Source of the DNA: an uncultured Thermotogaceae bacterium
GTDB lineage: Bacteria; Thermotogota; Thermotogae; MWEM01
Length of the DNA stretch: 64,000 nucleotides
Reading direction: 5' to 3'
NCBI GenBank assembly: GCA_964462525.1
Contig: CAYWWY010000001.1
Location: 183,074-247,073 of the forward strand
Made by a program: the position numbers and the translations under genes. Shown here piece by piece: positions 1 to 14,776 of this stretch (the first letter of the stretch is position 1; the number at the start of each line of letters is the position of its first letter). Below the pieces are notes generated by a model. It was not told the DNA's origin and did no database searches. It saw only the letters and a program-made list of their open reading frames with translations.

Positions 1-1595
1 ATGACATACAGTGCGTAACCGAAGGAATCGTACCCTCTATAGTACAGACGATCATCGACAACAAGCGGTTGGAATGCGCCTGTTTGTACAGAGGTATGCT
101 GATGGAAGGTCAGCTGGTTCAGATCAATGGAATAGATTTGGTATATTCCTTCCAGGTCCCAGGAAAAAAAGAGAGATGATTCGGTTAGGAAAGGATCGAT
201 CATCGCGTGATCAGAAGAATGGAGGCATATGAGCGCGCCATCCTCCCAAAGATACAGGTGTGTCTGTTCGTTGAAGGTAATGGAAAGCCCGATTCTTGGG
301 CCGTTAACGGAAATTCCGTTGATCCAAAAGTCTGGATTGCCATGCATCAGAGTTACTTCTTTGCTCGTATCGATCGTATGAACCATTAGGCTCGTTCCGC
401 CTTTATCGAGTTTCAGGTAAAGGATCGTACTTTCGTCCAACCACCGAACCTGGATGACCCGACCCTTTTCCGAAGCTTTACGCAAGACCCCATGATCGTC
501 TTCAAGAAAGAGTTCTTGACTGTACTGCTCCAAACCGTCGCCAAAACCATAGACTGCCGCAACTCTTCCTGCAGGGGAAATGTCAAAATCGATGGGCGTT
601 GGATCCAGGCGAAACACTCGACTCGTTCCATCGGGTTCGATCTGAAGCCACCGGGGCAGCATCTGGTCTGGCCTGTCAATCACCACGACCGAATTCCCAA
701 ACAAACGAGCCGTCCCAGAATGCGTTCGGCCCTTTTGAACTGGTTGTCCTTCATAAATAGGGTCGGGGATTGAAGCCTTTACGCGGTCGGATACCCATAC
801 CGCCCATTCTATAAGAAAGTCAGCCCAATCCATACCGGTAACCCCTTTTATGGCTTGAAAGAGGTTGTACCGATACTGAGTACCGTAGGTTTGAAAAAAA
901 GCCCGATATGCTTCGATCCCAAATCGGTCAATCATAAAGGCGAAAAAAAAGGCTCCATAAAGATAATTGTCTCCCACCGGTGTATATACAGGAGTCTGCA
1001 TCCCCCCCGCCAGTTGGAGACCCCGAAACCGTTCATCAAGGATGGCTGCTCGAAGGAACATTTCGAATCGGGAATCGTGAAGCCTCCCTTGATCAAAAAG
1101 AAGCGTTTCGGATACGATCGATCCGCCTTCGTGCATCCAGGATGGGGTAAATGCTGTATCGAAAAGCGTAGCCACAGGATTTCCGAATATCCGAAGCTGG
1201 TCTTTCAAGACACCCGGTTTATCAGCAATTAAGATATGGGTCAATTCGTGGGCAAATACATAAGGAACCCACCATTGATAATGGTTTTTCCCAATCCGAG
1301 TATCTGATCTGTTGACATAAATTGCCGTCATATGAGAAAAGATATCTGCGTAAGCGTTGGCATAGTCCCCGTCATCGACTAGATAGACGCGTACCCTCCG
1401 ATGTGGTTCAAATCCGTAGAAATCGCACAGATATTGGTAGATGCCAGGCCCCTCATGGTACAACTGCAGAGCGAAATCTTCCAACCCCTCTTGGTAAATG
1501 ATATCAAAGGGTTTTGTCCAGATTCGATAGTATTGGATCGCAAATGATGCAGTAAACGTCATCAGGCATACGAGAAAAAGGACCCATCTCTTCAT
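1..1595 (-). CDS. Secreted HExxH (zincin-like) metallopeptidase-family protein with a C-terminal beta-propeller-like region. Partial: the C-terminus runs off the window start.
   Basis: Manual translation of the minus strand from the ATG at 1595 gives a stop-free ORF to position 1. It has an N-terminal signal peptide (MKRWVLFLVCLMTFTASFA) and the motif FAHELTHILIAD (HExxH). The C-terminal part is rich in beta-strand/WD-like segments. It is absent from the ORF track, presumably because no stop lies inside the window. Confidence 0.55.
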   Translation of the reverse strand, partial: MKRWVLFLVCLMTFTASFAIQYYRIWTKPFDIIYQEGLEDFALQLYHEGPGIYQYLCDFYGFEPHRRVRVYLVDDGDYANAYADIFSHMTAIYVNRSDTRIGKNHYQWWVPYVFAHELTHILIADKPGVLKDQLRIFGNPVATLFDTAFTPSWMHEGGSIVSETLLFDQGRLHDSRFEMFLRAAILDERFRGLQLAGGMQTPVYTPVGDNYLYGAFFFAFMIDRFGIEAYRAFFQTYGTQYRYNLFQAIKGVTGMDWADFLIEWAVWVSDRVKASIPDPIYEGQPVQKGRTHSGTARLFGNSVVVIDRPDQMLPRWLQIEPDGTSRVFRLDPTPIDFDISPAGRVAAVYGFGDGLEQYSQELFLEDDHGVLRKASEKGRVIQVRWLDESTILYLKLDKGGTSLMVHTIDTSKEVTLMHGNPDFWINGISVNGPRIGLSITFNEQTHLYLWEDGALICLHSSDHAMIDPFLTESSLFFSWDLEGIYQIYSIDLNQLTFHQHTSVQTGAFQPLVVDDRLYYRGYDSFGYALYV

Positions 1596-1612
1596 TCGCG
1601 TCTCACCTCGCA

Positions 1613-1642
1613 ATAAAAAAGCGGGCTTGCGCCCGCTCTTTT
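1613..1642 (-). terminator. Rho-independent terminator of csp, bidirectional in shape.
   Basis: GCGGGC-ttgc-GCCCGC hairpin at 1621-1636, flanked by an A-run at 1615-1620 and tctttt at 1637-1642. On the minus strand it reads as stem plus TTTTTT immediately after the csp stop. Confidence 0.8.
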
Positions 1643-1656
1643 AGAATTCGCTGTAT

Positions 1657-1860
1657 TTATCCAAGGATAGAAACGTTTGCAGCTTGGGGTCCCTTGGTTC
1701 CATTTTGTACTTCGAACTCTACTTCTTGCCCTTCTTCGAGCGTTCGGAATCCATCCATATTGAGGGCGCTGAAGTGGACAAACACGTCATTGCCGTCGTC
1801 CTGAGAGATGAATCCGTAACCCTTCTTGGCATCAAACCACTTTACCTTACCTTTTAACAT
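1657..1860 (-). CDS. cspA: Cold-shock protein, CspA family, 67 aa.
   Basis: [33 protein letters not shown]... carries the canonical cold-shock-domain RNP motifs. The ATG at 1860 was chosen over the upstream ORF-track start. A ~240-nt untranslated leader follows, as is typical for csp genes. Confidence 0.9.
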
Positions 1861-2100
1861 CTTGTTCCTCCTAGAAACTTTGTTTTCCGTAAATACGGTT
1901 CCGAGGCATATCATACACGAAAAAACCCTCCTTGTCAACCCCTTGGATTTTTTTGAAACCGTTTGACGGAAATGGTGAACACTCAGCCAGACGGATCGTT
2001 AAAATGTTTTGGAATGTCCGGTATCCTGAAAAAAAATCAAGCTCATATTCAGGGGGTAAGCATTCGGTGAATTCGTACTGACTCGAAAAAAGGAAAAAGG

Positions 2101-5067
2101 CTAAAAATGGGTCTTTGCGATACGAAAGCCCCGGTTATTTTGTGAATTGCCTAGGGACCATTTATGAAACCGGTAAGCCAAGCGACAGTCGCCGGCATTG
2201 TTGTTCCAATGGCCACCTCGGACCATTTTATTCGAGTGGTGATCTAAGTGGCCAATAGGATTGGTCTTTGTTTCGGTTGTGTAGACTTGATAGGAGTCAT
2301 GACACCATTCCGTTACATTACCGGTCATGTCGTACAATCCCAATTGGTTCGGCGCCTTTTTTCCTACGGGTTGGGTACTCCCTCCAGAATTGTCCGTAAA
2401 CCAACCCACATCATCGATATCGTCGCCTCCCGCGTACAGATACCTTGGCGGAATCGGTAAAGCCAAATTGCCACCGCTCGCCGAATACTCCCACTCGGCT
2501 TCTGTAATCAGCCTATATCCAACTACTTGAGTAATATCTTCTGTTTTGGATCCCGCCGCGTCCAAAAAACTCCCTTGTTCTGGTTCGCCCTCTAAAATAT
2601 AGGCAACAGGCAATCCTTGTTGTTCGCTTAACCAATTACAGAAGGCGATCGCATCCCACCAAGTCACATTAACTACCGGACGGCTGCCTCTTCCCCAATC
2701 TTCATCACCAGGTTTAGCTCTATCCGTATCATCGCAGAAAGCATCGTATTCATAAAAGGTCACTGGATACGTTCCCACCCAAAAATCGTACGTCAGGTGA
2801 ACGGTATGAGTAGGTCCAGACTCGTGCAAATCTCCCTCTTCGTCACCCATTTGAAAAGTTCCTCCATAGACCAAGATCATTTCTGGGGGTGTGACCGTAA
2901 TCCGTTTTATGCCTTCCACTCCGGAACCATCTTTGGCGGTGGCTTTTACATCAACTATTCCTGTTGTCAGTCCCTTAAGAATACCTGTTTGGGTTATCTC
3001 GGCCCGATTCTCTCTGGGGGAGATCCCTCCAACATTTTCCACAGACCATGTGACCTCTTTGTTGGTTGCATTCTCGGGATTTACCTCCGCGATCATCTGA
3101 AGGGGTACCCCTACCCCAACAGATACTCTGCCTCCTTCTCCTGATACGGTAATGGCCGTTACAGGTTTATGAAAGGTAGCCACCAAGGTCACATTCTTTG
3201 CGGGCATAACATAGGAGAAGTTTTCTTCGACGCTTACTAGCTCCCCTCCGGACGTTCCAAACGTCCAATGGACAAAATCAAACCCCTCTGCGTCATCCGC
3301 ACGCACCTCAACCTGCGCGCCGGCAGGGTAATTCCCTGCGCCTTCTAAAACACCTACACCTTCCGGGTTTCCCTTCAAGGTCAAAGCAAAGATCTGTTCG
3401 AAGATGGCCAATAGGGTCACATTTGCCGCTGGCATGGTGAAGGTGTGGGTAGTGTCTGTGCTGACCGTGCTTCCAAAGCTATCTTCCCACTCAACAAAGC
3501 GATACCCAGCATTGGGTGTTGCTGTGATCTCTACCTCTGCTCCCGCTGCATAGGTGCCTCCTCCGGTTACCGTGCCCCATGTGTTGTTGTTTCTATTCAA
3601 TGTTAAGGTAAAAGCCTGTTCGAAGATGGCCAATAGGGTCACATTTGCCGCTGGCATGGTGAAGGTGTGGGTAGTGTCTGTGCTGACCGTGCTTCCAAAG
3701 CTATCTTCCCACTCAACAAAGCGATACCCCGTATTGGGTATGGCTGTGATCTCTACCTCTGCTCCCGCTACGTATGCTCCTCCTCCGGTCACGGTACCCC
3801 ATGCGTTGTTGTTTCTATTCAGGGTCAGGGTGTGAGCATCGGGTGGCAACTCTTCAAAATTTGCTACCAATGTCACGTTTTCTGCCGGCATCATGTAGTT
3901 GTAGTTGGCTTGTGTGCTGATTACCGAACCACCGTGGGTCCATTGGACAAAGCGGTAGCCTGCTGTTGGTGTGGCCTGGATGTTGGCAACCTGTCCAGCT
4001 GCATAGGTTCCTCCCCCAGCGACTGTTCCCCAAGCGTTGTTGTTTCTATTCAGGGTCAGGGTGTACAACTCAGCAGGTACTTCTTCAAAATCCGCTACCA
4101 ATGTCACATTCTCAGCAGGCATCGTGTAGCTGTGGTTGGCTTGTGTGCTGATGATCGTACCACCGTGGGTCCAATGGACAAAGCGGTAGCCCGCTGTTGG
4201 TGTGGCCTGGATGTTGGCAACCTGTCCGGCTACATAGGTTCCTCCCCCAGCGACTATTCCCCAAGCGTTGTTGTTTCTATTCAGGGTCAGGGTGAATGGC
4301 TGCGTTTGAGTGTTAAAGGTCCACACATCGCCTTCTGTCAATTCTCTTGGTTCGCTGGTTCTCCCGTCATCAGCGTCGACTCGCCAGAAGTATTGAGTGT
4401 CGTATGCCAATTCGGGCAGAGGGTGGTTCGTTTCGGTGGTTGTGGCGATCCATTCCAAATCGTCTTCCTCTGTGCTTAGGTAGACCATGTAGGTAAGTGG
4501 GTCGCCCTCAGGATCACCACAATCCCATCGCAAGACGACCCCTTCGATGGGTTGGTTTTCTGCGCCATCTTCCGGCTGGGGGTTGAATGGCTTGAGTGGG
4601 GGTTGGTTGAAGACTTCTATCCATAAGGTTGCTTCTTTTGTATTGTCATTTCTTGGGTTGATTTGATCGGGCGGGATGAGGGTGGCGCGGGTGGCGCGGA
4701 TGATGACCTCGTAGATTCCCGACGCCGTTGCGCTCACGTCGATTTCGTAGACTAAAACGCCATCGACAAGCTCAGTGGCTTGCGCCTGCTCTCGGAAGAT
4801 GACGGTGAACTCGACCCCAACGATGGGGGTGATGGAAAAGGAGAAGGTGTCTTCCCCCTCCAAACTGAATGGGGAGTTTTCGTCGATGTGGTCAGAGGCT
4901 GCCGCATCTCCGTCGCCTGTAATAATCTGCACCAACGCGTCCAGGACTTCGGGATCTTCCAGATTAGGAAGGACGATCTTGGGGATATCTCGGCTTACGC
5001 AGGAGAAAAGAAGAAAGACCATTATCAAGACCAGTGTCAGGATCGCAATCCGTTGTTTCGTGCCCAT
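2101..5067 (-). CDS. Large surface lipoprotein. It carries a Big_2 (bacterial Ig-like) domain, 4-5 tandem Listeria-Bacteroides (InlB B-type) repeats and a C-terminal formylglycine-generating-enzyme (FGE/SUMF1-like) domain.
   Basis: Lipobox LLFSC follows a hydrophobic signal peptide. The ATG at 5067 has GGAGGTG 8 nt upstream; the ORF-track start at 5103 is a GTG. The repeats read TLTLNRNNNAWGTV(A/T)GGGTY(A)AG..., a Big_2-like segment reads VTAITVSG...KATAKDGSG, and the C-terminal RGGHWNNNAGDCRLAYRF...NRGFR is FGE-sulfatase-like. Confidence 0.75.
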   Translation of the reverse strand: MGTKQRIAILTLVLIMVFLLFSCVSRDIPKIVLPNLEDPEVLDALVQIITGDGDAAASDHIDENSPFSLEGEDTFSFSITPIVGVEFTVIFREQAQATELVDGVLVYEIDVSATASGIYEVIIRATRATLIPPDQINPRNDNTKEATLWIEVFNQPPLKPFNPQPEDGAENQPIEGVVLRWDCGDPEGDPLTYMVYLSTEEDDLEWIATTTETNHPLPELAYDTQYFWRVDADDGRTSEPRELTEGDVWTFNTQTQPFTLTLNRNNNAWGIVAGGGTYVAGQVANIQATPTAGYRFVHWTHGGTIISTQANHSYTMPAENVTLVADFEEVPAELYTLTLNRNNNAWGTVAGGGTYAAGQVANIQATPTAGYRFVQWTHGGSVISTQANYNYMMPAENVTLVANFEELPPDAHTLTLNRNNNAWGTVTGGGAYVAGAEVEITAIPNTGYRFVEWEDSFGSTVSTDTTHTFTMPAANVTLLAIFEQAFTLTLNRNNNTWGTVTGGGTYAAGAEVEITATPNAGYRFVEWEDSFGSTVSTDTTHTFTMPAANVTLLAIFEQIFALTLKGNPEGVGVLEGAGNYPAGAQVEVRADDAEGFDFVHWTFGTSGGELVSVEENFSYVMPAKNVTLVATFHKPVTAITVSGEGGRVSVGVGVPLQMIAEVNPENATNKEVTWSVENVGGISPRENRAEITQTGILKGLTTGIVDVKATAKDGSGVEGIKRITVTPPEMILVYGGTFQMGDEEGDLHESGPTHTVHLTYDFWVGTYPVTFYEYDAFCDDTDRAKPGDEDWGRGSRPVVNVTWWDAIAFCNWLSEQQGLPVAYILEGEPEQGSFLDAAGSKTEDITQVVGYRLITEAEWEYSASGGNLALPIPPRYLYAGGDDIDDVGWFTDNSGGSTQPVGKKAPNQLGLYDMTGNVTEWCHDSYQVYTTETKTNPIGHLDHHSNKMVRGGHWNNNAGDCRLAYRFHKWSLGNSQNNRGFRIAKTHF
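3390..4300 (-). repeat. Intragenic tandem DNA repeats: two near-identical ~222-bp units followed by two near-identical ~231-bp units.
   Basis: The ~110-nt string cgaagatggccaatagggtcacatttgccgctggcatggtgaaggtgtgggtagtgtctgtgctgaccgtgcttccaaagctatcttcccactcaacaaagcgataccc starts at 3399 and again at 3621. A second unit (ttctgccggcatcatgtag...cagggtcagggtg) recurs at ~3876 and ~4110. These encode the InlB-B-like protein repeats. Confidence 0.85.
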
Positions 5068-5827
5068 ACATTTGCACCTCCAGAGCATGATTTGTTTAGT
5101 CACGCATATGATGGAGGATTTGTGGACTACAAAAAATCCGATTGCTGTATATCATAGGAACGAAAGGGAATAGAAAAGAAAACCGCTACAAGAATGAATG
5201 AGAAATAAGGAGCTTTTTGCTGGAACTCGAATCCTCACCGCAAAATCCCCCTTCTTTTCATCTTTTCATTTTACCATTTTGTGTACCTATTGTCAAGGAT
5301 CCGAAATGCTTCATAAATAAAAAGTACCCAAAATAGGATCTATTTTGAGAGCAGGGGACCGAGGCAAGGAGGAGCGTGTTCACATGGGGGAAAAATCCGT
5401 ATGGGAGAAATACGGGAAGTTGTTGAGAAGAGTGCGAAAAGATATCGAGAAAGCAATGACAGGTCACCCAAAACACAGATTTTGAACGAGTGTGACGAAA
5501 TGACGGGGTGCGAACGTCATTATGCAGCAAAGAACTTTCGTACAGAGCATTTGAGGCTTCGAGGGTTAAAAGGCGAAAAAAGAAGCCCAAAAGGGCAAAA
5601 GTCCAAGAAGATCCACAGGCATTTACAGACACCATATCACCGATGGCTGGAATTATCTTGGACCTCTCTAGATAAAAAAGAAGGGCTCCGCGGGGAAAGA
5701 TTTCAGATAAGTAATATACTATATAATACCATATATTCATACGAATCATGTCATATGGTATGGGTGAAATAAGATCAGATGTCCCTCCGTCAATAATATT
5801 GGAAAATCAAAATCGGAGGTGAAAGGT

Positions 5828-6289
5828 ATGTTGGTTCGAAGGGTACAAAGCGATTGGGACAACTTTTACAAACCGTTCTTGTCGATGCAAAGGGAGATTG
5901 ACAATCTTTTTTCCAACTTTCTTTCTGGGGAACGAGGCGCTAGTATCGATCGATCTGGTTGGAGGGTTCCCAGCGTAGATGTATATGATACTGAGAAAGA
6001 GTTTGTATTTGAATTTGAACTCCCGGGTTTTGACAAAGAGGATGTAAAAGTCAACGTGCAGAACGATGTGTTGACCGTGGAGTGTGAAAAAAAACTCCAG
6101 AGAGACTCCAAGGAAAAGAACTATCACCTTACGGAACGCCAAGGGCTTTGTTTCAAGAGGCAGTTCAATCTTCCAGACACGGCAGAATCTGACAAGACGT
6201 TCGCGCAATTTGAAAAAGGAGTTCTAGAGATCAGAATGCCGAAAAAAGAGGTTGCTCAGCCAAAAAGTATCGACATTCAAGTGAAATGA
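5828..6289 (+). CDS. Small heat-shock protein, Hsp20/alpha-crystallin family.
   Basis: Alpha-crystallin domain reads VDVYDTEKEFVFEFELPGFDKEDVKVNVQNDVLTVECEKK...GVLEIRMPK. ATG 5828 lies 7 nt after GGAGGTG; the ORF-track start at 5819 is a GTG. Confidence 0.85.
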   Translation: MLVRRVQSDWDNFYKPFLSMQREIDNLFSNFLSGERGASIDRSGWRVPSVDVYDTEKEFVFEFELPGFDKEDVKVNVQNDVLTVECEKKLQRDSKEKNYHLTERQGLCFKRQFNLPDTAESDKTFAQFEKGVLEIRMPKKEVAQPKSIDIQVK

Positions 6290-6370: not shown

Positions 6371-7126
6371 CTAGAATGGAATCCAATAAGCACGACCATC
6401 AGGTGTTCGTTGCAGAAACCCATATTCGATCAAGTATCGGCGCACCATGACATAATCATCAATTACGTTCATCAGAATTCGATTGATTTCGGATTCCTCA
6501 TATTTGATCCCTTTCTTCAAATGTTCCTTTATTATGTGTCTCAAGATGATCCATTTAGATTTTTGCTTGTTTGGAAAAACAATGATCTTTCCATTTCGGT
6601 CAACATACTTTTCTATCATTTTCTGCGCCTCTTCTTCTGTCACCGAGTATCGATCATCGATCATAGTTGCAGTTTTTGGGTATTCTACGAGCTTGTCTTC
6701 TCTTTTTTCCAATACTTCCACTAATTCCCACAGGGCAAGGAAAATCCGTGCCTGTTTCGCTTTTTCTCGGAGCCGAAAGCGGTGATTTCGGACAGTGGAT
6801 TCGCTTACCTTCATCTCCTGAGCAATATCCCGATTGCTTTTCCCATCATGGAGAAAAGTAAGTAAGACCGTTTGGGTTTCGCTCAACACTGAAAAACGCT
6901 GATCTAACTCCAACAGAAAGTTCCACGTTCCTCCGTGATCACATCGAATATGAAGATCGATTGCCTTTTCAGCAAGGTATAGATCACCTTCGACCTCATA
7001 GACCTTCCCTTCTTCATATACTCGTCCACAGACCAGGCAGATCCATTTTTTCTCTTCCGGAATCCAAAAACTTCCTGCTTTTAGATCTTCAGCAGGGACC
7101 TTCCAAAACCATTCATTCAGATCCAT
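6371..7126 (-). CDS. Putative transcriptional regulator with an N-terminal Cys/His zinc-ribbon-like motif, a central LuxR/GerE-type HTH and an uncharacterised C-terminal domain.
   Basis: HTH segment LLTFLHDGKSNRDIAQEMKVSESTVRNHRFRLREKA. N-terminus reads CLVCGRVY...HIRCDHGG. It is transcribed divergently from the metF-metH operon. Confidence 0.55.
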   Translation of the reverse strand: MDLNEWFWKVPAEDLKAGSFWIPEEKKWICLVCGRVYEEGKVYEVEGDLYLAEKAIDLHIRCDHGGTWNFLLELDQRFSVLSETQTVLLTFLHDGKSNRDIAQEMKVSESTVRNHRFRLREKAKQARIFLALWELVEVLEKREDKLVEYPKTATMIDDRYSVTEEEAQKMIEKYVDRNGKIIVFPNKQKSKWIILRHIIKEHLKKGIKYEESEINRILMNVIDDYVMVRRYLIEYGFLQRTPDGRAYWIPF

Positions 7127-7393
7127 CGTACCACCTCCATGGTCTGATTATATCACATAACATAAAATATTACAAACGTATACAGATAATGTCTACATAT
7201 ATAGATCATATTTCTGGATATGTTTGACTATCACTAGGCATTGGATGAACTGAGAACTGGATCAAAGACGGCTTAGCCGGGGAAGCAAACAACAGGGGGA
7301 AGATGGAATGGCGCGGAAGGGACCATTGTGTCTTTCTTCGGTTTCGAATTTCGGGGATGATGAAACACTGAATCGCTCAAAAACCTTTTGTCA

Positions 7394-7402
7394 TGGTATA
7401 AT
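7394..7402 (+). promoter_or_regulatory. Extended -10 (TGGTATAAT) of the metF-metH operon promoter.
   Basis: tcaTGGTATAATc lies 45 nt upstream of the metF ATG. The same TGGTATAAT element recurs in front of two other genes in the window. Confidence 0.5.
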
Positions 7403-7447
7403 CATCGCAGAATTTGGTGACGAGATCCTTAGATATTGGGGGTACTT

Positions 7448-8347
7448 ATGAAAAACAGAATAGCAGCATTCATGAACAGCCTATCGAGACCCTTTTCCTT
7501 GGAAATCTTCCCGCCAAAAAAAGAACATCAAAAAGCTTTTGAGTTTGTCTTGAGAACGATCGAAGCCCTCTGCCCCACGAACCCTTCATTCATCAGCGTA
7601 ACTTATGGTGCAGGCGGATCGAATAAAGGAAAAGTCGTGCAGATCTCTCACGAAGTGCTGGAAAGAGGAATCCTCCCGCTCAGTCATTTGACAGCGGTCG
7701 GATTTTCGAAGGAAGACGTCCGACTGGTTCTTGACCAGCTGCATGAAGCGGGAGTGCGCGCGATTCTCGCTTTGAGGGGAGATATTCCGAAAGGGGTTAC
7801 TTACCCAGATGGGGCGTGGAAAGACTTTCACCTTGCCATAGACTTGATCCGGCTCGTGCGAGAAGATGGCCGATTCTGTGTGGGGGCTGCAACCTATCCG
7901 GAGGGCCACCCTACCCATCGCGATCCAGATCGCTCGGTCGAGCATTTTGCTATCAAAGCATCTGCTGGGGCTGATTTTTTTATCTCCCAAATGTTTTTTG
8001 ACAACTCTTGCTTCTACCGTTTCGTGGATACAGTTAGAAAGCGCGGGCTTTCTCATCCAATCATTCCCGGAATCATGCCTTTGGTAAAAAAGATCCAAAT
8101 CCAGAAAATCCTCGAATTATCTGGGGCAATGATTCCCAAAACTCTGCTTGAATCAATTGAACGGTATCAGGATGACCCAGAAAGCTTTTGCCAAGCAGGG
8201 ATCGATTTTGCAACTCAACAGGTCCTCATGCTCAGAGATCAAGGAATCCCCAATGTTCACCTCTATACAATGAATCAACCTGATCCGATTCTGAAAATAC
8301 TCACACAAGCAAGTCTTTTGGATGAAAAGGAGATCCACAATGGATAG
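7448..8347 (+). CDS. metF: 5,10-methylenetetrahydrofolate reductase (MetF).
   Basis: FSLEIFPPKK...ISVTYGAGGSNKG...HLTAVGFSKED...ILALRGDIPKG matches MTHFR conserved blocks. The ORF-track start at 7436 is a TTG, so the first ATG (7448) was chosen. Confidence 0.8.
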   Translation: MKNRIAAFMNSLSRPFSLEIFPPKKEHQKAFEFVLRTIEALCPTNPSFISVTYGAGGSNKGKVVQISHEVLERGILPLSHLTAVGFSKEDVRLVLDQLHEAGVRAILALRGDIPKGVTYPDGAWKDFHLAIDLIRLVREDGRFCVGAATYPEGHPTHRDPDRSVEHFAIKASAGADFFISQMFFDNSCFYRFVDTVRKRGLSHPIIPGIMPLVKKIQIQKILELSGAMIPKTLLESIERYQDDPESFCQAGIDFATQQVLMLRDQGIPNVHLYTMNQPDPILKILTQASLLDEKEIHNG

Positions 8348-10682
8348 AGCAGAGTTTTCGGACCGAATTCAAAAAGAAGTGATTCTTTTGGACGGTTCAT
8401 ATGGCGCAAACCTCCAAATCAAAAGGTCGGATGCCCGCGCAGTGGAAATGTACAATATCAAAGACCCCGATTCTGTATTGGACCTTCATAAGGCTTATGT
8501 GCTCGCTGGGTCCGATCTGATCCTTACGAACTCCTTCAGCGCAAATCCACTTAAGCTAAAGATGCTTGGATTGGAGGGACTATTCGAACCAATAAATCGA
8601 GCCGCTGTTCATATAGCGAAGAAAGCTACCCAAGGAAGGAGTTGGGTATTTGGAGACATCTCTTCTTCGGGGCATTTTGCGCAACCATTTGGAGAGCCTT
8701 CTTTTGAAGAGTTGGAAGAATGCTTTTCTCAACAAGCCCTGGTTTTATTCGATTCTGGAGTGGATGGAATCCTTTTGGAAACCTTTACAGACATCAAAGA
8801 ACTGAAAGCTGCTATTTCTGGTGTGCGAAAGATCGCTCCCCATATCCCTTTAATCGCTTCGATGACCTTTACCGAGGAAGGAAGAACAGTATCGGGAACA
8901 CCGGTTCACGGATTCGGGATCCTAATGGAAGATTTGGACGTGGATGTGGTCGGGATTAATTGTACGCTTGACCCCAAGCAAATTATCCCGATTGCGCGTT
9001 CTCTGATGGAAGCAACTTCAAAACCCATCTGCGTCCAACCCAATGCAGGGAAACCGATCACGATTGGCCAAGAATCTCGATACGATCTGAGTCCCGATCA
9101 GTTTCGGCTTTATATGGAAGATTCTCTGGATTTGGGGGTATCTATGGTTGGTGGCTGCTGCGGAACAAACCCGAAGCATATCCACGAATTGCGGTTGCTC
9201 CTCGAGATTTACCATCGAAGCGAAACTAAGAGATTGGTTCACCCAAGGCTTTTTGTCACATCACGAACTTACTGTATTTCACCTGCCCCGTTTATGATAA
9301 TTGGAGAACGGATCAACCCTGCTTCTCGGAATGATTTTCAGAAAGAGATTGCGGAGATGGATATGAGAACAGTAATCCGTGAAGCAGCCAGCCAAGAACA
9401 AGAAGGAGCCGACGTATTGGATCTGAATTTGGGAATTGAAAAAGGCTTAACGCCTGATCATATACGAAAAGCAATCTGCGATTTGGATCGGGCGTCTTGC
9501 GTACCTCTTTCCATTGATATCCAAACGCGGGAATTACGGGAAACTGCATTGAGAGAATACCCAGGTCGCGGAATTATTAACTCCGCACGGATTACCCCAA
9601 AAAGCTTGGAATTTGCTATTCATTGTCTGAAGCAGTACGGAGGGTTAGTCATCCTATTGGGTATGGGAAAAACAGTTCCCGATACAGCCCTCGAACGGTT
9701 TCAATTGATCCTTAATGGGATTCAAGAAATGGAAAACGCTGGCATTTCTCGTGACCGTATCTTGGCTGATCCCTTGGTCTTGACAATTGGAGCGGGAAAC
9801 AAACCAAAAACCACGCTAGAAGCAATCCGATTGTTACATGAACAAGGGATTCGAACTACATTAGGTCTGTCCAACCTGAGTTACGGGATGAGAAATCGGA
9901 GCCATATCAATGCCGCCTTTATTTCTCAAGCCATAAGTGCTGGATTGGATAGCGCGATCATGAATCCAGCGGAAAAAATCGTCATGAATGTTTTAGATGG
10001 CAGTTTAACCCTACAAGGAAAAGAACGAGAAAACACCAATATTGGCGTGGATGACCCATTGATTCGGTCTTTGCTGCATGGAGATCTTCATACTGCCGAC
10101 CGTTTGATCCAAGAAAAGCTTGAAACTGGCCGTAAATCGGATATTGGTCAATCGGTTCTTGGAGAATCTCTTCAAGAGATTGGAGAGATGTACGCCAACG
10201 GAACCTTGTTTTTGCCTCATCTTCTTATGGCTGCTCAAACCGCAGCACCAATCTTCGACCGTTTGAACACCCTAGTAGGAAAACGGAGTCGGGCGATTGG
10301 CCGCGTTTTGCTGGCAACTGTTGAAGGGGACGTACACGATATTGGAAAGAAAATTATCGGGACTGTTTTGCAGAGTGGAGGATTTGAAGTGGTAGATATT
10401 GGAATCGACCAGTCGTCTCAGGAGATCCTTGATGCGGTTCTTAGGGAAAAGCCGGATATTGTCGGTTTATCAGCGATGATGACGACCACTATTGGAAAGG
10501 TCGAAGAGTTTTCCCGACTCCGCAAAGAGGTTCATCTTTCAATTCCCTTAATCTGCGGCGGGGCATCTCTTAATGGAGAGCTTGCCAAGAGCTTTGGGTG
10601 CGAAGGATATTGCGCCAATGCCTCAGGTGTAGTAAAACTGTGCAAGCAACTCCTTGGGAAGGAAGTGGTTCCATTTGATTGA
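8340..10682 (+). CDS. metH: Cobalamin-dependent methionine synthase core (Hcy S-methyltransferase, pterin-binding and B12-binding domains). The AdoMet reactivation domain is absent.
   Basis: LLDGSYGANL...GGCCGTNP (zinc/Hcy site), then the B12-binding DxHxxG block VEGDVHDIGKKIIGTVLQSGGFEVVDIG. At 781 aa it is too short to contain the activation domain. ATG 8340 is preceded by AAAGGAG and overlaps the metF stop (ATGGATAG). Confidence 0.85.
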   Translation: MDRAEFSDRIQKEVILLDGSYGANLQIKRSDARAVEMYNIKDPDSVLDLHKAYVLAGSDLILTNSFSANPLKLKMLGLEGLFEPINRAAVHIAKKATQGRSWVFGDISSSGHFAQPFGEPSFEELEECFSQQALVLFDSGVDGILLETFTDIKELKAAISGVRKIAPHIPLIASMTFTEEGRTVSGTPVHGFGILMEDLDVDVVGINCTLDPKQIIPIARSLMEATSKPICVQPNAGKPITIGQESRYDLSPDQFRLYMEDSLDLGVSMVGGCCGTNPKHIHELRLLLEIYHRSETKRLVHPRLFVTSRTYCISPAPFMIIGERINPASRNDFQKEIAEMDMRTVIREAASQEQEGADVLDLNLGIEKGLTPDHIRKAICDLDRASCVPLSIDIQTRELRETALREYPGRGIINSARITPKSLEFAIHCLKQYGGLVILLGMGKTVPDTALERFQLILNGIQEMENAGISRDRILADPLVLTIGAGNKPKTTLEAIRLLHEQGIRTTLGLSNLSYGMRNRSHINAAFISQAISAGLDSAIMNPAEKIVMNVLDGSLTLQGKERENTNIGVDDPLIRSLLHGDLHTADRLIQEKLETGRKSDIGQSVLGESLQEIGEMYANGTLFLPHLLMAAQTAAPIFDRLNTLVGKRSRAIGRVLLATVEGDVHDIGKKIIGTVLQSGGFEVVDIGIDQSSQEILDAVLREKPDIVGLSAMMTTTIGKVEEFSRLRKEVHLSIPLICGGASLNGELAKSFGCEGYCANASGVVKLCKQLLGKEVVPFD

Positions 10683-11445
10683 ACTCGATCAACTTTCTTT
10701 TTCTTACGAACGAGAATCTCCATTAATCAACAATTTATCTCTCGTGATTTCTTCTGCGGAATTTTTTGGGATCATTGGCCCCAATGGTTCAGGAAAAAGC
10801 ACATTGCTGAAGTTGATCTGTGGGCTTTTACGCCCTGATAAAGGAGAAATCCGAATCGACGGAGCAAGTACTGCCCGCACTTCGAGAAAAAAGCTTGCTC
10901 AAAATGTTTCTGCGGTATTGCAGGACTTCTTGCCCGTATATGATTTCGCCGTTCAAGACATAGTTCATATGGGACGGATCCCTTATCACAACCCTTTCTC
11001 CGAGCAACGATTCGAAGACTATCAGATCGTCCGAAAAGCGATTGAGCAAACCCAATTGAATGGTTTTGAAAAACGACGGTACTATACGTTAAGCGGGGGA
11101 GAAAAACAGCGAACGATCATTGCAAAGTGCTTTGCTCAACAAACCCCGGTTATTCTTTTGGATGAGTTCATTGCTCATCTCGATTTGGGGCATATACAGC
11201 AGGTTCTGCAAACTGTTTCATATAAGAATGACAAAGAGAAAATCACTATCGTCGGGGTTTTTCACGATATTAATATAGCCGCTCTTTACTGTGATCGGAT
11301 CTGCGTCTTGAACCATGGAGATCTCGAATGCATAGGGACTCCAGAAGAGGTGATTCAGAAAGAACTCCTGCAATCCGTATTTTCTGCTCAATGCGAAGTG
11401 ATTGATCACCCGGTTCTTCATAAACCCCAGGTGGTCCTTTTGTGA
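10654..11445 (+). CDS. ABC transporter ATP-binding protein (FepC/BtuD/FhuC-like NBD) with no cognate permease or binding protein in the window.
   Basis: Walker A GPNGSGKSTLLKLICG, signature LSGGEKQRTIIAKCF, Walker B ILLDEFIAHLD and H-loop are all present. The start is uncertain (TTG at 10654 or TTG at 10675) and overlaps the metH stop. The stop overlaps the next ORF as ATGA. Confidence 0.75.
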   Translation: MGRKWFHLIELDQLSFSYERESPLINNLSLVISSAEFFGIIGPNGSGKSTLLKLICGLLRPDKGEIRIDGASTARTSRKKLAQNVSAVLQDFLPVYDFAVQDIVHMGRIPYHNPFSEQRFEDYQIVRKAIEQTQLNGFEKRRYYTLSGGEKQRTIIAKCFAQQTPVILLDEFIAHLDLGHIQQVLQTVSYKNDKEKITIVGVFHDINIAALYCDRICVLNHGDLECIGTPEEVIQKELLQSVFSAQCEVIDHPVLHKPQVVLL

Positions 11446-12593
11446 ATGATTTGATCGATGCGTTGTATGACGCGCAGTACTTACATCGATTGCATGACTT
11501 GAGAGCGAAAAGCCAATGGGCTATCGATTCTTTATCGCAGGCACGTCTCAAGAAAATGGATGATTCGGGGTTTTCCTATATCATTAATAAATTGGATAAT
11601 TCGTTAAAAGAGAAGCTTCGAGGAGTAGACCTTCTTACGGTTATGTTCGCATGGGACAAGCTTTTCTACGGTTCTGGAAAGTTTTCCGATCGCCTTGAAG
11701 CGTGTTGTGACTTATTGGATCTTTCTGATTGGGATTTGGGGTTTTTGCTCTTCTTTACCGCTCCAAAAAGCTTTTTCCCCCCTAACCCTTTGGTTATCGC
11801 TTATTTTCAAAAGATCAAATCAACGATTGCGGAAACCTCTTTCCTTCAGTTCACCCAGACAGCCTCAAAGATTTGGAAGACCCGAAGAGACCATGACGTT
11901 TTTCCATCACCGATGGAACTGTATGCTGCGTTATTGACTATGAGGGATCGTTATGAGAACCCGAATCCTTTTAGTTCTTTTGTAGACACGCATGATGAAC
12001 GACTTTTTTCGGAACTCATCGATAGCATACGGAATCTGAGCTTGTATAGACTGAATCCAATGCAGATCACCTGGATTAGAGACTTATGCAGCGACTTTTC
12101 GGATCCGCAAAGATTCCGTCTTATGGAACGGATGCGCCAGGAAAACATCCATCCCTATATCCGAAGGATTATAACGAAGCAACCCAAACAAGGAGCCATC
12201 GTTGACGGGAGCAACATCATTTTTTCCGGTCTTTTGCAACCAGATCCCCTTCGACTCAGAGACCTAATGAATGCTTTGGGCGCTTTCCCCACCCTTTTCT
12301 TTCCGATCCGCTTTGTGTTCGACGCCAATGTGGATTACATCATCCCAACCAACCATGCATTTTGGAACACCCACTTTCGAAGCAATCCTGAGGTTGTCCG
12401 TTTTTCTCCAGCGGACGAATGGATAATCCAAACAGCATACGAGCAAAAATACGCTGTCATATCCAATGATCAGTATCGGCAGCATCAGAACTTGGGGTTG
12501 CCTATATACCCCTTTCTTCCTCATCAAGTGCGCCTTTGTCGGAAAGAGGACGCTAGACCAGGTACGATATCAAAAAAGCGGTCAAACCGGTAA
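11442..12593 (+). CDS. Hypothetical soluble protein with a C-terminal Zc3h12a-like NYN (PIN-like RNase) domain.
   Basis: The C-terminus reads GAIVDGSNIIFSG...RFSPADEWIIQTAYEQKYAVISNDQYRQ. This matches the IDGSNV ... VFTP..DD...A....IVSND.YRD pattern of Zc3h12a-type NYN domains. No TM segments. It is translationally coupled to the upstream ABC ATPase. Confidence 0.5.
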   Translation: MNDLIDALYDAQYLHRLHDLRAKSQWAIDSLSQARLKKMDDSGFSYIINKLDNSLKEKLRGVDLLTVMFAWDKLFYGSGKFSDRLEACCDLLDLSDWDLGFLLFFTAPKSFFPPNPLVIAYFQKIKSTIAETSFLQFTQTASKIWKTRRDHDVFPSPMELYAALLTMRDRYENPNPFSSFVDTHDERLFSELIDSIRNLSLYRLNPMQITWIRDLCSDFSDPQRFRLMERMRQENIHPYIRRIITKQPKQGAIVDGSNIIFSGLLQPDPLRLRDLMNALGAFPTLFFPIRFVFDANVDYIIPTNHAFWNTHFRSNPEVVRFSPADEWIIQTAYEQKYAVISNDQYRQHQNLGLPIYPFLPHQVRLCRKEDARPGTISKKRSNR

Positions 12594-13707
12594 TTGCCAA
12601 GATGGGCGCCATCCGGATCAGGGTTTTATACAAATCCGTTTGAAAGTAATTCACAGTCAGTACGATACACAGATGAACCGGAGACATTAGGACTCCAGCT
12701 ACCGCTCCAAAATACAGCCACAAAGGATCTGCGCCTAAAACCAGAAGCAAAGGGGCAGAGATTCCGATAGCGCTTTGAGTGATACCTGTTGCAAGCCCAA
12801 TTAAAAAGGGTAAGAGGAAGGTAAGAACGTTCAAGTTCAACCCCAATTGTTGTAAGTCTGTTGCGATGTCTGCAGCAAGCTGAACGTGTTCCAAATAAGC
12901 TTTATAGGCAAAAAATGAAAAGAGCAAAAAGAAAACAGGGAAGCGTTTGGCGGTTTTTTTCATGGATGGGATCAAGGAATGGTATCGTAAGCAAAAATAG
13001 ACTCCTACCGTTATCAACAGAGCCAGATACCCCTCCATCCGAAATCCGAGAATCAACACCCCTGTGATCGCAATCACCAACAAAACCCACAATCCCTTCA
13101 GGGAATGCAGACCGGCTTTTTTCATTTTGGGCAATGAAATTCCATTTAAGTAGATCCACCCGCCTACTACTGCTGTGAGAAAGATTGGGAAGGCCTTAAT
13201 TGAAAAGGACGCCATATTGATTGACGCCAAAGAACAAATAATAATCAGAGCAGGATACAAGGGCCAAAAAAACTCTACAGCGTGCCGAAACCAGAAGTTG
13301 GCCAGCACAAGATACTCGTTGGAGGAATCTTTCCCCACCATTTTCACTATGGGCGCTGTAAACATGGCTCCGCCAGGCATTGGCAAAAAACCGATCATTA
13401 ATGGCATAAAAGCAACAGATGTTTTTGGATCAAATAGATTTTGAACGGAATGGGAGAATTTTTGGTCATCTCGAGAGTGTGACAAGCCTTCGCTGAAAAG
13501 AAAGATCAGAAATACCGGAATTACCGATCGATATAAAGCGATATCGGAAAAAGGTTCAATCAAACTCAGGAAAAGGGCATTACCATCCCAACGAAAAACG
13601 ATCACAATCATGATTGCTGCGAATACTGCCATAAAGATCGATCGGCTCAATTTCTGAACCAGTACAAGAACCAATAGAGACACCAAAATGATTGCGAAAG
13701 ACAACAA
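12553..13707 (-). CDS. Polytopic membrane protein or permease of unassigned family (~10 TM).
   Basis: 384 aa, strongly hydrophobic throughout. Its 3' end overlaps the convergent NYN ORF by 41 nt. Confidence 0.5.
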   Translation of the reverse strand: MLSFAIILVSLLVLVLVQKLSRSIFMAVFAAIMIVIVFRWDGNALFLSLIEPFSDIALYRSVIPVFLIFLFSEGLSHSRDDQKFSHSVQNLFDPKTSVAFMPLMIGFLPMPGGAMFTAPIVKMVGKDSSNEYLVLANFWFRHAVEFFWPLYPALIIICSLASINMASFSIKAFPIFLTAVVGGWIYLNGISLPKMKKAGLHSLKGLWVLLVIAITGVLILGFRMEGYLALLITVGVYFCLRYHSLIPSMKKTAKRFPVFFLLFSFFAYKAYLEHVQLAADIATDLQQLGLNLNVLTFLLPFLIGLATGITQSAIGISAPLLLVLGADPLWLYFGAVAGVLMSPVHLCIVLTVNYFQTDLYKTLIRMAPILAITGLTAFLISYLV

Positions 13708-13720
13708 AGATCACCAGGCC

Positions 13721-14776
13721 TTAGGCGCGTTCACGAATAACCTCTTGTAGTAGAACAAAAAAGCGATTCCATAACTGATCTTTTGGGTAAGCGGCGACGA
13801 CCTTTCCTTTACGAAAGATCACTCCCCCGTGTTTTGTTCCAGCGATTCCAAGATCCGCTTCTTTGCCTTCCCCAATACCGTTTACAGCGCAACCCATTAC
13901 CGCTATGGTTATCGACACATCACAAAAACCAAGAAAGGCTTCGATTTGTTCGGCCCATTCTTCAACAGGAGCATCGGTTCTTCCACAGGTGGGGCAAGCA
14001 ATGACGATTGGACCCTTTTTCAACCCCAAAGAACCTAGAAGAATCTTTGCTGCACGGACTTCATAAATTGGGTCCCCTGTGATCGAATAACGAATGGTGT
14101 CTCCTATGCCTTCCTGTAATAGACTTCCAATCAGCGCACTGGACTTTATTAGTGAAGAGAAAAGGGTACCTGCTTCTGTCAACCCGATATGGAGGGGATA
14201 TGAACACTGGCTTGCAACTGATCGGGTCGCTTCCAGAGTCTGTTGTATATCAGAAGCTTTTACCGCCACAATGATCTGGTCGAAACCGGCTTCTTCCAAA
14301 ATACGCACTTCTCTCATTGCAGCTTCGGCTAGCGCTTCCGCTTTGAGTAAATGAGCAAGGTCCTCAGGAAGCGAACCTGAATTGGCTCCAACTCGTATGG
14401 ATACTCCCATTCTTTTGGCTTCAAATGCGATATCCCGAATCCGTTCAGCGTTTTTTATATTGCCTGGATTCAAGCGGATTTTGGGGATCCCCTGATGAAT
14501 AGCTTCTATGGCAATTTTGTAATCATAATGAACATCAGCAATCAAAGGGATTGGATCGGTTCGTTCCAGAACTTCTGGTAAGAACTCGAGCGATTCTCGA
14601 TCAGGCAATGCAACCCGTACCAAATCAGCCCCACATTGATTGAGCTGGTGAATTTGGGCTATACAAGCAGAGGTGTTTGATATAGGTACTGTGCACATTG
14701 ACTGAATCGCAATCGGGTGATCCCCTCCGATTACTATGGATCCTACTGGAATTGGAATGCTCGATCTTCGCTTCAA
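13721..14776 (-). CDS. ispG: 4-hydroxy-3-methylbut-2-en-1-yl diphosphate synthase (IspG/GcpE).
   Basis: IQSMCTVPISNTSACIAQIHQL..GADLVRVALPD and the C-terminal CPTCGR Fe-S motif. Confidence 0.85.
   Translation of the reverse strand: MKRRSSIPIPVGSIVIGGDHPIAIQSMCTVPISNTSACIAQIHQLNQCGADLVRVALPDRESLEFLPEVLERTDPIPLIADVHYDYKIAIEAIHQGIPKIRLNPGNIKNAERIRDIAFEAKRMGVSIRVGANSGSLPEDLAHLLKAEALAEAAMREVRILEEAGFDQIIVAVKASDIQQTLEATRSVASQCSYPLHIGLTEAGTLFSSLIKSSALIGSLLQEGIGDTIRYSITGDPIYEVRAAKILLGSLGLKKGPIVIACPTCGRTDAPVEEWAEQIEAFLGFCDVSITIAVMGCAVNGIGEGKEADLGIAGTKHGGVIFRKGKVVAAYPKDQLWNRFFVLLQEVIRERA

What the first reader, a model, noticed from the sequence alone, without database searches (positions are those of the whole stretch)
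10654..12593. Type-II-importer-like ABC nucleotide-binding protein paired with a soluble Zc3h12a-like NYN RNase-domain protein, with no permease
The NBD has all canonical transporter motifs of the FepC/BtuD/FhuC type. Its only coupled partner is a TM-free 383-aa protein whose C-terminal ~150 aa match the Zc3h12a/NYN nuclease signature: VDGSNI ... FSPADE ... AVISNDQYRQ, with conserved acidic positions.

ATPase-plus-nuclease two-gene modules are a recurring theme in phage-defence and RNA-turnover systems. A transporter-class NBD in that role would be unusual. The downstream convergent membrane protein (12553-13707) is not a FecCD-type permease.
Basis: inference. Interest (0 to 1): 0.62.

Follow-up and report, generated by a model that had tools for sequence, protein, structure and literature searches.

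The report
Orphan transporter ATPase beside NYN nuclease

Summary
The sequence observation holds. ORF 10654/10675-11445 is an intact ABC ATPase whose closest relatives are type II importer ATPases (HmuV, FhuC, BtuD-like). ORF 11442-12593 is a soluble 383-aa protein with a new all-helical N-terminal domain and a C-terminal NYN/PIN-like nuclease domain that keeps conserved acidic residues. No FecCD permease or binding protein lies anywhere in the 64-kb window.

The interpretation as a functional ATPase-plus-nuclease module is not supported.
- The adjacency occurs only in the window and two close relatives (85% and 60% identity), and all three share the same housekeeping order: metF-metH-NBD-NYN, then DUF401, ispG and thrS on the opposite strand.
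- In 13 other Thermotogota genomes the full-length nuclease follows mnmG and a Mem_trans gene. In 5 more, a 332-aa relative sits beside queA.
- The ATPase ortholog (48-57% identity) also lacks a permease in 5 other lineages, in different contexts.
- In one complete MAG chromosome the two genes are about 3.1 Mb apart.
- Neither protein matches a known defence component in a specific way.

Most likely these are two independent housekeeping genes. One is an unlinked importer ATPase serving permeases encoded elsewhere, as S. aureus FhuC and B. subtilis YusV do. The other is a Thermotogota-specific NYN nuclease of unknown substrate. Interest is low.

The parts
10675..11445 (+). ABC nucleotide-binding protein of the HmuV/FhuC/BtuD (type II importer) class, 256 aa. 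The mechanical ORF begins at TTG 10654 (263 aa). It belongs to a Thermotogota-only clade that never has a permease next door and carries the invariant signatures AKCFAQ and LLDEF..HLD.
   Evidence: gene calls of 256 aa
11442..12593 (+). Soluble 383-aa protein made of an unclassified helical N-terminal domain plus a C-terminal NYN/PIN-like nuclease domain. The family is restricted to Thermotogota.
11442..12176 (+). [not shown]
12192..12530 (+). NYN (Zc3h12a/PRORP-group PIN-like) nuclease domain, residues about 251-363. Invariant residues are D255 (12204-12206), N258, D294 (12321-12323), D325 (12414-12416) and D343 (12468-12470).
7436..10682 (+). metF (MTHFR, 7436-8347) and a B12-dependent metH without the reactivation domain (8322-10682). 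Each ORF overlaps the next on the same strand, so they probably form one transcription unit with the NBD and the NYN gene.
12553..13707 (-). Convergent DUF401/TIGR00529 10-TM membrane protein whose 3' end overlaps the NYN gene by 41 nt. It is not FecCD and is not linked to the NBD in other lineages.

Best explanation
These are two functionally independent housekeeping genes that ended up as the last two genes of the metF-metH operon in one small Thermotogota subclade.

(1) The NBD is a catalytically intact ATPase of the type II importer class. It is encoded apart from its membrane partner in every lineage of its clade that was examined. It most likely dimerises on one or more FecCD-type permeases encoded elsewhere in the genome and powers uptake of heme, siderophore iron or a corrinoid. 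S. aureus FhuC works this way for HtsABC, SirABC and IsdEF, and B. subtilis YusV for FeuABC and YfiYZ-YfhA.

(2) The 383-aa protein is a metal-dependent nuclease. Its C-terminal NYN domain carries the active site (D255, D294, D325, D343, N258). The family-specific helical N-terminal domain probably supplies nucleic-acid recognition. The most likely substrate is RNA, possibly tRNA-related, given its neighbours in other lineages.

Shown here: the domain identities, the conserved catalytic residues, the absence of a permease nearby, and the non-conservation of the pairing. Inferred: co-transcription, the existence of an unlinked permease, RNA as substrate, and a housekeeping role.
For: Pairing not conserved. 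Among genomes with a full-length homolog of the 383-aa protein, only the 85% and 60% relatives have the NBD next door, within an otherwise identical gene order. Thirteen others carry ABC2_membrane-mnmG-Mem_trans-NYN with no NBD ortholog within 10 kb. Five Kosmotogaceae or Petrotogales genomes carry a 332-aa relative between rpmE and queA.

NBD orthologs. At 48-57% identity they sit in other contexts in 5 lineages and never next to FecCD, a binding protein or the NYN gene. In MAG chromosome OY763325.1 the NBD lies at about 0.69 Mb and the NYN gene at about 3.80 Mb.

Positive control. Canonical relatives of the NBD (about 30-40% identity) have a FecCD gene in the fetched locus in 15 of the 21 top-ranked loci, and where the probe aligns in full it abuts the NBD gene. 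The same probe finds none near the Thermotogota clade.

Class of the NBD. Catalytic motifs are intact and the closest structures are HmuV and FhuC.

Precedent for unlinked or shared importer ATPases: PMC10147376 and PMC11466899. A Fur gene lies about 330 bp downstream of the NBD ortholog in two lineages.

NYN fold and residues. Relatives are already labelled 'RNase NYN domain-containing protein' or 'ribonuclease' in Thermosipho and Fervidobacterium.
Against: - In the window subclade the two genes overlap by 4 nt and are probably co-translated, so a recently acquired functional link cannot be excluded.
- No unlinked FecCD permease was actually found, because the rest of the genome was out of reach.
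- The orphan clade has lost the conserved Pro-Thr after Walker B (DEF instead of DEPT) and has AKCFAQ instead of ARALAQ. This could mean a non-canonical partner.
- The window protein has Ala and Gln at two of the five MCPIP1 aspartate positions (A324, Q347), and no activity was tested.
Confidence: 0.72

Rival explanations
1. The transporter-class NBD and the NYN protein form a two-gene ATPase-plus-nuclease machine for phage defence or regulated RNA turnover, and the ATPase works without any membrane partner.
For: The 4-nt start/stop overlap with its own Shine-Dalgarno sequence is conserved in three lineages. There is no permease within 64 kb. The NBD clade is diverged at the DEPT and ARALAQ positions.
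Against: The adjacency is confined to one subclade in which the whole neighbourhood is collinear, so it carries no independent weight. Both genes exist unlinked in at least 5 to 13 other lineages, and about 3.1 Mb apart in one chromosome. PADLOC gives nothing for the nuclease and only generic ABC or P-loop matches for the NBD. The known defence ATPases (AriA, PtuA, GajA) belong to the SMC/RecF-like AAA_15/21/23 class, and the NBD matches them only over the P-loop. The neighbours are metF, metH, ispG and thrS.
Confidence: 0.07
2. The NBD is specifically the BtuD-like ATPase of a cobalamin importer, placed behind the B12-dependent metH so that cofactor uptake is co-regulated with methionine synthase.
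For: It lies directly downstream of, and overlaps, a B12-binding MetH in three lineages. The NCBIfam corrinoid ABC ATPase model scores 214 bits, second best.
Against: The metH linkage is absent in 5 other lineages of the same NBD clade. Rfam found no cobalamin riboswitch in the window. The best matches are heme HmuV and FhuC. A Fur gene is nearby in two lineages. Substrate cannot be read from an NBD sequence.
Confidence: 0.12
3. The Thermotogota orphan NBD clade is not a transporter component at all. It is an ABC ATPase that works with an unknown soluble partner, as SufC does with SufBD.
For: The NBD lacks a permease next door in all 9 loci and in at least 3 different contexts. Clade-specific loss of the Pro after Walker B Glu and a changed helix after the signature motif.
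Against: Overall similarity to HmuV and FhuC is strong and full-length. The Q-loop Gln, the contact point with the coupling helix, is invariant. No conserved soluble neighbour exists across contexts. Unlinked importer ATPases are a documented arrangement.
Confidence: 0.09

Closest known systems
HmuV / FhuC / BtuD-type nucleotide-binding subunits of type II ABC importers (PDB 4g1u, 7lb8)
   Same: Full-length similarity (E = 8e-43 and 2e-40), the same size, and all ATP-binding and hydrolysis motifs.
   Different: No FecCD permease or substrate-binding protein is encoded nearby in any lineage. It scores below the NCBIfam equivalog cut-offs (229 against 261 for heme). It has DEF instead of DEPT and AKCFAQ instead of ARALAQ.
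Shared or unlinked iron-importer ATPases: S. aureus FhuC and B. subtilis YusV
   Same: An ATPase of the same class that energises FecCD-type permeases whose own operons lack an ATPase (PMC10147376, PMC11466899).
   Different: FhuC itself sits in fhuCBG with a permease. Here no partner permease was identified, so the analogy is inferred.
Zc3h12a (MCPIP1/Regnase-1), ZC3H12C and KHNYN NYN endoribonucleases (PF11977; PRORP group of PIN-like nucleases, Matelska et al. 2017, PMC5499597)
   Different: There is no CCCH zinc finger after the domain. MCPIP1 D225 is Ala and D248 is Gln in the window protein (Asp in most relatives). There is an extra invariant FDAN aspartate. The N-terminal domain is unrelated. 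Pfam scores below threshold. Matelska et al. list the bacterial members of this family as 'unknown function'.
PRORP (protein-only RNase P)
ATPase-plus-nuclease defence pairs (PARIS AriAB, Septu PtuAB, Gabija GajAB)
   Same: An ABC-superfamily ATPase gene next to a nuclease gene.
   Different: Those ATPases are SMC/RecF-like, and the window NBD matches them only over the P-loop. The nuclease has no PADLOC hit. There is no conserved co-occurrence and no defence-island context.

Membership tests
Type II ABC importer NBD (HmuV/FhuC/FepC/BtuD) | Walker A, Q-loop, LSGGQ signature, Walker B, D-loop and H-loop | tested here: met
   GPNGSGKST, Q90, LSGGEKQR, ILLDE, HLD and H204 are invariant in alignment A3.
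Type II ABC importer NBD (HmuV/FhuC/FepC/BtuD) | Closest sequence relatives are NBDs of FecCD-type importers | tested here: met
   HmuV 8e-43 and FhuC 2e-40 lead the PDB hits by 13 orders of magnitude. The top NCBIfam models are heme, corrinoid and FecE.
Type II ABC importer NBD (HmuV/FhuC/FepC/BtuD) | Reaches an NCBIfam equivalog cut-off (assigns substrate) | tested here: not met
   229 bits against a cut-off of 261 (heme), 214 against 537 (corrinoid) and 210 against 375 (FecE).
Type II ABC importer NBD (HmuV/FhuC/FepC/BtuD) | Encoded with a FecCD permease and a class III binding protein | tested here: not met
   None in the 64-kb window, and no FecCD homolog within +/-8 kb of the orthologs examined. 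Canonical relatives do have one in the locus in 15 of the 21 top-ranked loci.
Type II ABC importer NBD (HmuV/FhuC/FepC/BtuD) | Physically docks on a FecCD permease encoded elsewhere | not testable with these tools
RNase_Zc3h12a / NYN (PF11977) | Pfam gathering score | tested here: not met
   15.8 bits against 23 for the window protein. However, 49 of 61 profile-linked relatives hit PF11977, best 3.6e-20.
RNase_Zc3h12a / NYN (PF11977) | PIN-like alpha/beta fold of the PRORP/Zc3h12a group | tested here: met
   [not shown]
RNase_Zc3h12a / NYN (PF11977) | Active-site acidic residues (MCPIP1 D141, D225, D226, D244, D248) | tested here: inconclusive
   D255, D325 and D343 align with D141, D226 and D244 and are invariant. 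A324 replaces D225 in all members. Q347 replaces D248 in the window subclade, where most relatives keep Asp. An extra invariant D294 is present. Whether these residues cluster in space could not be measured.
RNase_Zc3h12a / NYN (PF11977) | Endoribonuclease activity | not testable with these tools
   This needs biochemistry.
PRORP (protein-only RNase P) | PPR repeats plus a zinc-binding connector upstream of the NYN domain | tested here: not met
   [not shown]
ATPase-nuclease anti-phage systems (PARIS, Septu, Gabija, OLD-like) | Both proteins match system models, and the pair co-occurs across genomes | tested here: not met
   In PADLOC the NBD gives only the generic ABC match mad3 plus P-loop-only hits, and the nuclease gives none. 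The pair is split in 18 genomes with a nuclease homolog and in 5 lineages with the NBD ortholog.

The most novel reading that the evidence does not exclude
The Thermotogota-only orphan NBD clade (invariant LLDEF..HLD and AKCFAQ) has left membrane transport and acts as a soluble ATP switch. In the window subclade it has been captured, through translational coupling, as a regulator of the NYN nuclease. That would be a transporter-class ABC ATPase controlling a nuclease.
Probability: 0.06. Interest if true: 0.6.

Novelty: new member of a known kind. Interest (0 to 1): 0.2.

Why it matters
As it stands, the value is mainly corrective. A striking-looking 'ATPase plus nuclease without permease' pair dissolves once relatives are compared, which shows that adjacency inside a collinear subclade is not evidence of coupling.

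Two small residues of interest remain.
- A conserved clade of type II importer ATPases in Thermotogota always lacks an adjacent permease and carries an unusual Walker B/D-loop region.
- A Thermotogota-restricted NYN nuclease has an unclassified helical N-terminal domain. It belongs to the bacterial branch of the Zc3h12a family, whose function is still listed as unknown.

Its repeated placement next to wobble-tRNA modification genes (mnmG, queA) and folate/methionine genes gives a testable hint of a tRNA-related role.

Tried and rejected
- Defence-system reading. The PADLOC scan of both proteins and two neighbours gave only generic ABC or P-loop hits. Rejected.
- DUF401 as the missing permease. 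It is convergent, it is not FecCD, and it is absent near the NBD in other lineages. Rejected.
- The 835-847-aa protein upstream of the NBD in three lineages as a membrane partner. It has only a signal-like N-terminal segment, an HExxH motif and a weak Tricorn_N match, so it is not a permease. Its homolog lies about 9 kb away on the other strand in the window.
- Riboswitch control linking the NBD to B12 or SAM. Rfam at gathering threshold found only a cspA element at 1612-1963.
- Promoter and terminator scan of 7000-13800. Counts were no higher than in shuffled sequence.
- Metagenome scan with the orphan-clade alignment. The generic Walker A pattern swamped it and it returned only canonical NBDs of 40% identity or less. 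These were reused as a positive control for the FecCD probe.
- AFDB50 fold search. The library was unavailable.
- Multimer prediction of the NBD dimer with the 383-aa protein. No tool offered it.
- Finding FecCD genes elsewhere in the same genomes.
Full report
**What is at the coordinates.** The ORF list gives, on the + strand:
- metF/MTHFR (7436-8347);
- a 786-aa B12-dependent methionine synthase without the reactivation domain (8322-10682);
- an ABC ATPase (10654-11445);
- a 383-aa ORF (11442-12593).

A DUF401 membrane protein (12553-13707), ispG and thrS converge on these from the - strand. The ATPase stop and the GTG start of the 383-aa ORF overlap as GTGA, with AGGTGG 7 nt upstream. The ATPase most likely starts at TTG 10675, overlapping the metH stop by 8 nt, as gene calls on identical or near-identical contigs have it (256 aa). 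The four genes therefore look like one transcription unit. This is inferred, because the promoter and terminator scan was uninformative.

**The ATPase.**
- Pfam ABC_tran E = 2e-31.
- The best NCBIfam models are heme (229 bits), corrinoid (214) and FecE (210), all below their equivalog cut-offs.
- The closest solved structures are HmuV (4g1u, 8e-43) and FhuC (7lb8, 2e-40), far ahead of every other ABC protein.
- All catalytic motifs are invariant.

Its nearest relatives (48-94% identity) form a Thermotogota-only clade with the invariant signatures AKCFAQ and LLDEF..HLD, where canonical members have ARALAQ and LDEPT.HLD.

**The 383-aa protein.**
- It has no predicted TM segment.
- Pfam gives only a sub-threshold RNase_Zc3h12a hit (15.8 bits against 23).
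- Only 11 clusters of homologs exist in the 5.8-billion-protein database, and the ones that carry a name come from Thermotogota MAGs.
- Their alignment has invariant D255-G-S-N258, F-D294-A-N, S-P-A-D325 and N342-D343.
- A profile of the family hits only ZC3H12A/B/C and KHNYN in the PDB (best E = 0.0025). There, xDGSN aligns with MCPIP1 D141/N144, D325 with D226 and D343 with D244 (MCPIP1 active site from PMC5499597).
- The exhaustive profile search found 124 cluster representatives. Three are full-length, about 30 are proteins of roughly 300 aa sharing the last 175 residues, and the rest share only the NYN domain.
- In an alignment of 61 of these, the D, N, D, D positions are invariant, and 49 of the 61 hit PF11977, down to 3.6e-20.
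- The AlphaFold model (pLDDT 83) has a helical region (1-245) and an alpha/beta domain (252-360).

The NYN call is confirmed. Two of the five MCPIP1 aspartates are not kept in the window protein (A324, Q347), and an additional invariant D294 is present. The short tail after the domain contains a single cysteine, so there is no CCCH zinc finger.

**No permease.** The ORFs with 6 or more predicted TM segments in the 64-kb window are DUF401, Wzy_C, LNT, YitT, MMPL and a Glycos_transf_4 protein. A BtuC probe was validated as FecCD (291 bits). It finds nothing in the window or in the loci around the orthologs. The same probe does find a FecCD gene in the fetched locus in 15 of the 21 top-ranked loci that carry canonical relatives of the NBD, and where it aligns in full that gene abuts the NBD gene.

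**Is the pair a module?** The comparative evidence says no.
- Full-length homologs of the nuclease were located in GTDB species-representative genomes and in assemblies.
- Only the 85% and 60% relatives carry the NBD next door. In both, the whole neighbourhood is collinear with the window (metF-metH-NBD-NYN followed by DUF401, ispG and thrS on the opposite strand), so the adjacency is a single inherited event.
- The 13 genomes at about 40% identity all have ABC2_membrane-mnmG-Mem_trans-NYN with variable downstream genes and no ortholog of the NBD within 10 kb.
- Five Kosmotogaceae or Petrotogales genomes have a 332-aa relative between rpmE and an overlapping queA.
- Conversely, NBD orthologs in five lineages follow either an 835-847-aa secreted HExxH protein or a biotin/lipoate ligase-family gene. 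They never have FecCD, a binding protein or the nuclease nearby.
- In chromosome OY763325.1 the two genes are at about 0.69 and about 3.80 Mb.
- PADLOC finds nothing specific, and the surrounding genes are core metabolism and translation.

**Most likely mechanism.** The NBD is an unlinked importer ATPase. That arrangement is documented for S. aureus FhuC, which energises HtsABC, SirABC and IsdEF, whose operons lack an ATPase (PMC10147376). B. subtilis YusV is likewise paired with FeuABC and YfiYZ-YfhA (PMC11466899). A Fur gene just downstream in two lineages hints at iron, and the metH adjacency in the window subclade hints at B12, but neither is conserved.

The nuclease is a Thermotogota-wide, single-context housekeeping NYN enzyme. 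Relatives in Thermosipho and Fervidobacterium are already labelled 'RNase NYN domain-containing protein' or 'ribonuclease'. The bacterial branch of PF11977 is listed as of unknown function (PMC5499597).

**Residual uncertainty.** The DEF and AKCFAQ signatures of the orphan clade are unexplained. Translational coupling in the window subclade leaves a small chance of a recently evolved link. Neither ATPase nor nuclease activity has been measured.

**Verdict.** The functional interpretation is not supported. These are ordinary members of known kinds, in a chance juxtaposition.

Noticed in passing
window 10675-11445; P0012-P0035; loci L030-L041: The Thermotogota orphan NBD clade has invariant AKCFAQ and LLDEF..HLD, having lost the Pro-Thr of the canonical DEPT after Walker B. 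It has no FecCD homolog within +/-8 kb in any of 9 loci, whereas 15 of the 21 top-ranked canonical relatives at about 30-40% identity have one in the locus.
   Followed up: partly
window 15-1595 (-), runs off the window start; L031 5444-7951; L030 5441-7984; L006 1252-3678 (-): A secreted protein of about 840 aa with an HExxH motif and a weak Tricorn_N match lies directly upstream of the NBD ortholog in three lineages. Its homolog is about 9 kb from the NBD on the opposite strand in the window, which looks like relic synteny.
   Followed up: partly
L001-L003, L008-L024 (mnmG-Mem_trans-NYN); L025-L029 (rpmE, NYN332, queA); window 7436-12593: All three conserved contexts of the NYN family lie beside wobble-position tRNA modification genes (mnmG, queA) or folate/methionine one-carbon genes (metF, metH). 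This may be a hint of a tRNA-related substrate, or a coincidence.
   Followed up: no
[not shown]
   Followed up: partly
window 8322-10682: The MetH-like protein (786 aa) has the homocysteine, pterin and B12-binding domains but no AdoMet reactivation domain.
   Followed up: no
window 1612-1963 (-): An Rfam cspA thermoregulator hit (85 bits) overlaps a cold-shock-domain gene (1657-1938, -). An HSP20 gene lies nearby at 5819-6289.
   Followed up: partly
window 12553-12593: The 3' ends of the NYN gene and the convergent DUF401 gene overlap by 41 nt. The same overlap is present in the 85% relative (L004), but not in the 60% relative (L006).
   Followed up: no
window 2101-5103 (-): A 1000-aa predicted surface protein combines five divergent InlB B-repeat domains, a Big_2 domain and a C-terminal FGE-sulfatase domain.
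   Followed up: no
L001 3997-5133 and equivalents in 12 other genomes: An ABC2_membrane permease gene sits upstream of mnmG with no adjacent ATPase. This is another unlinked ABC component in this clade.
   Followed up: no
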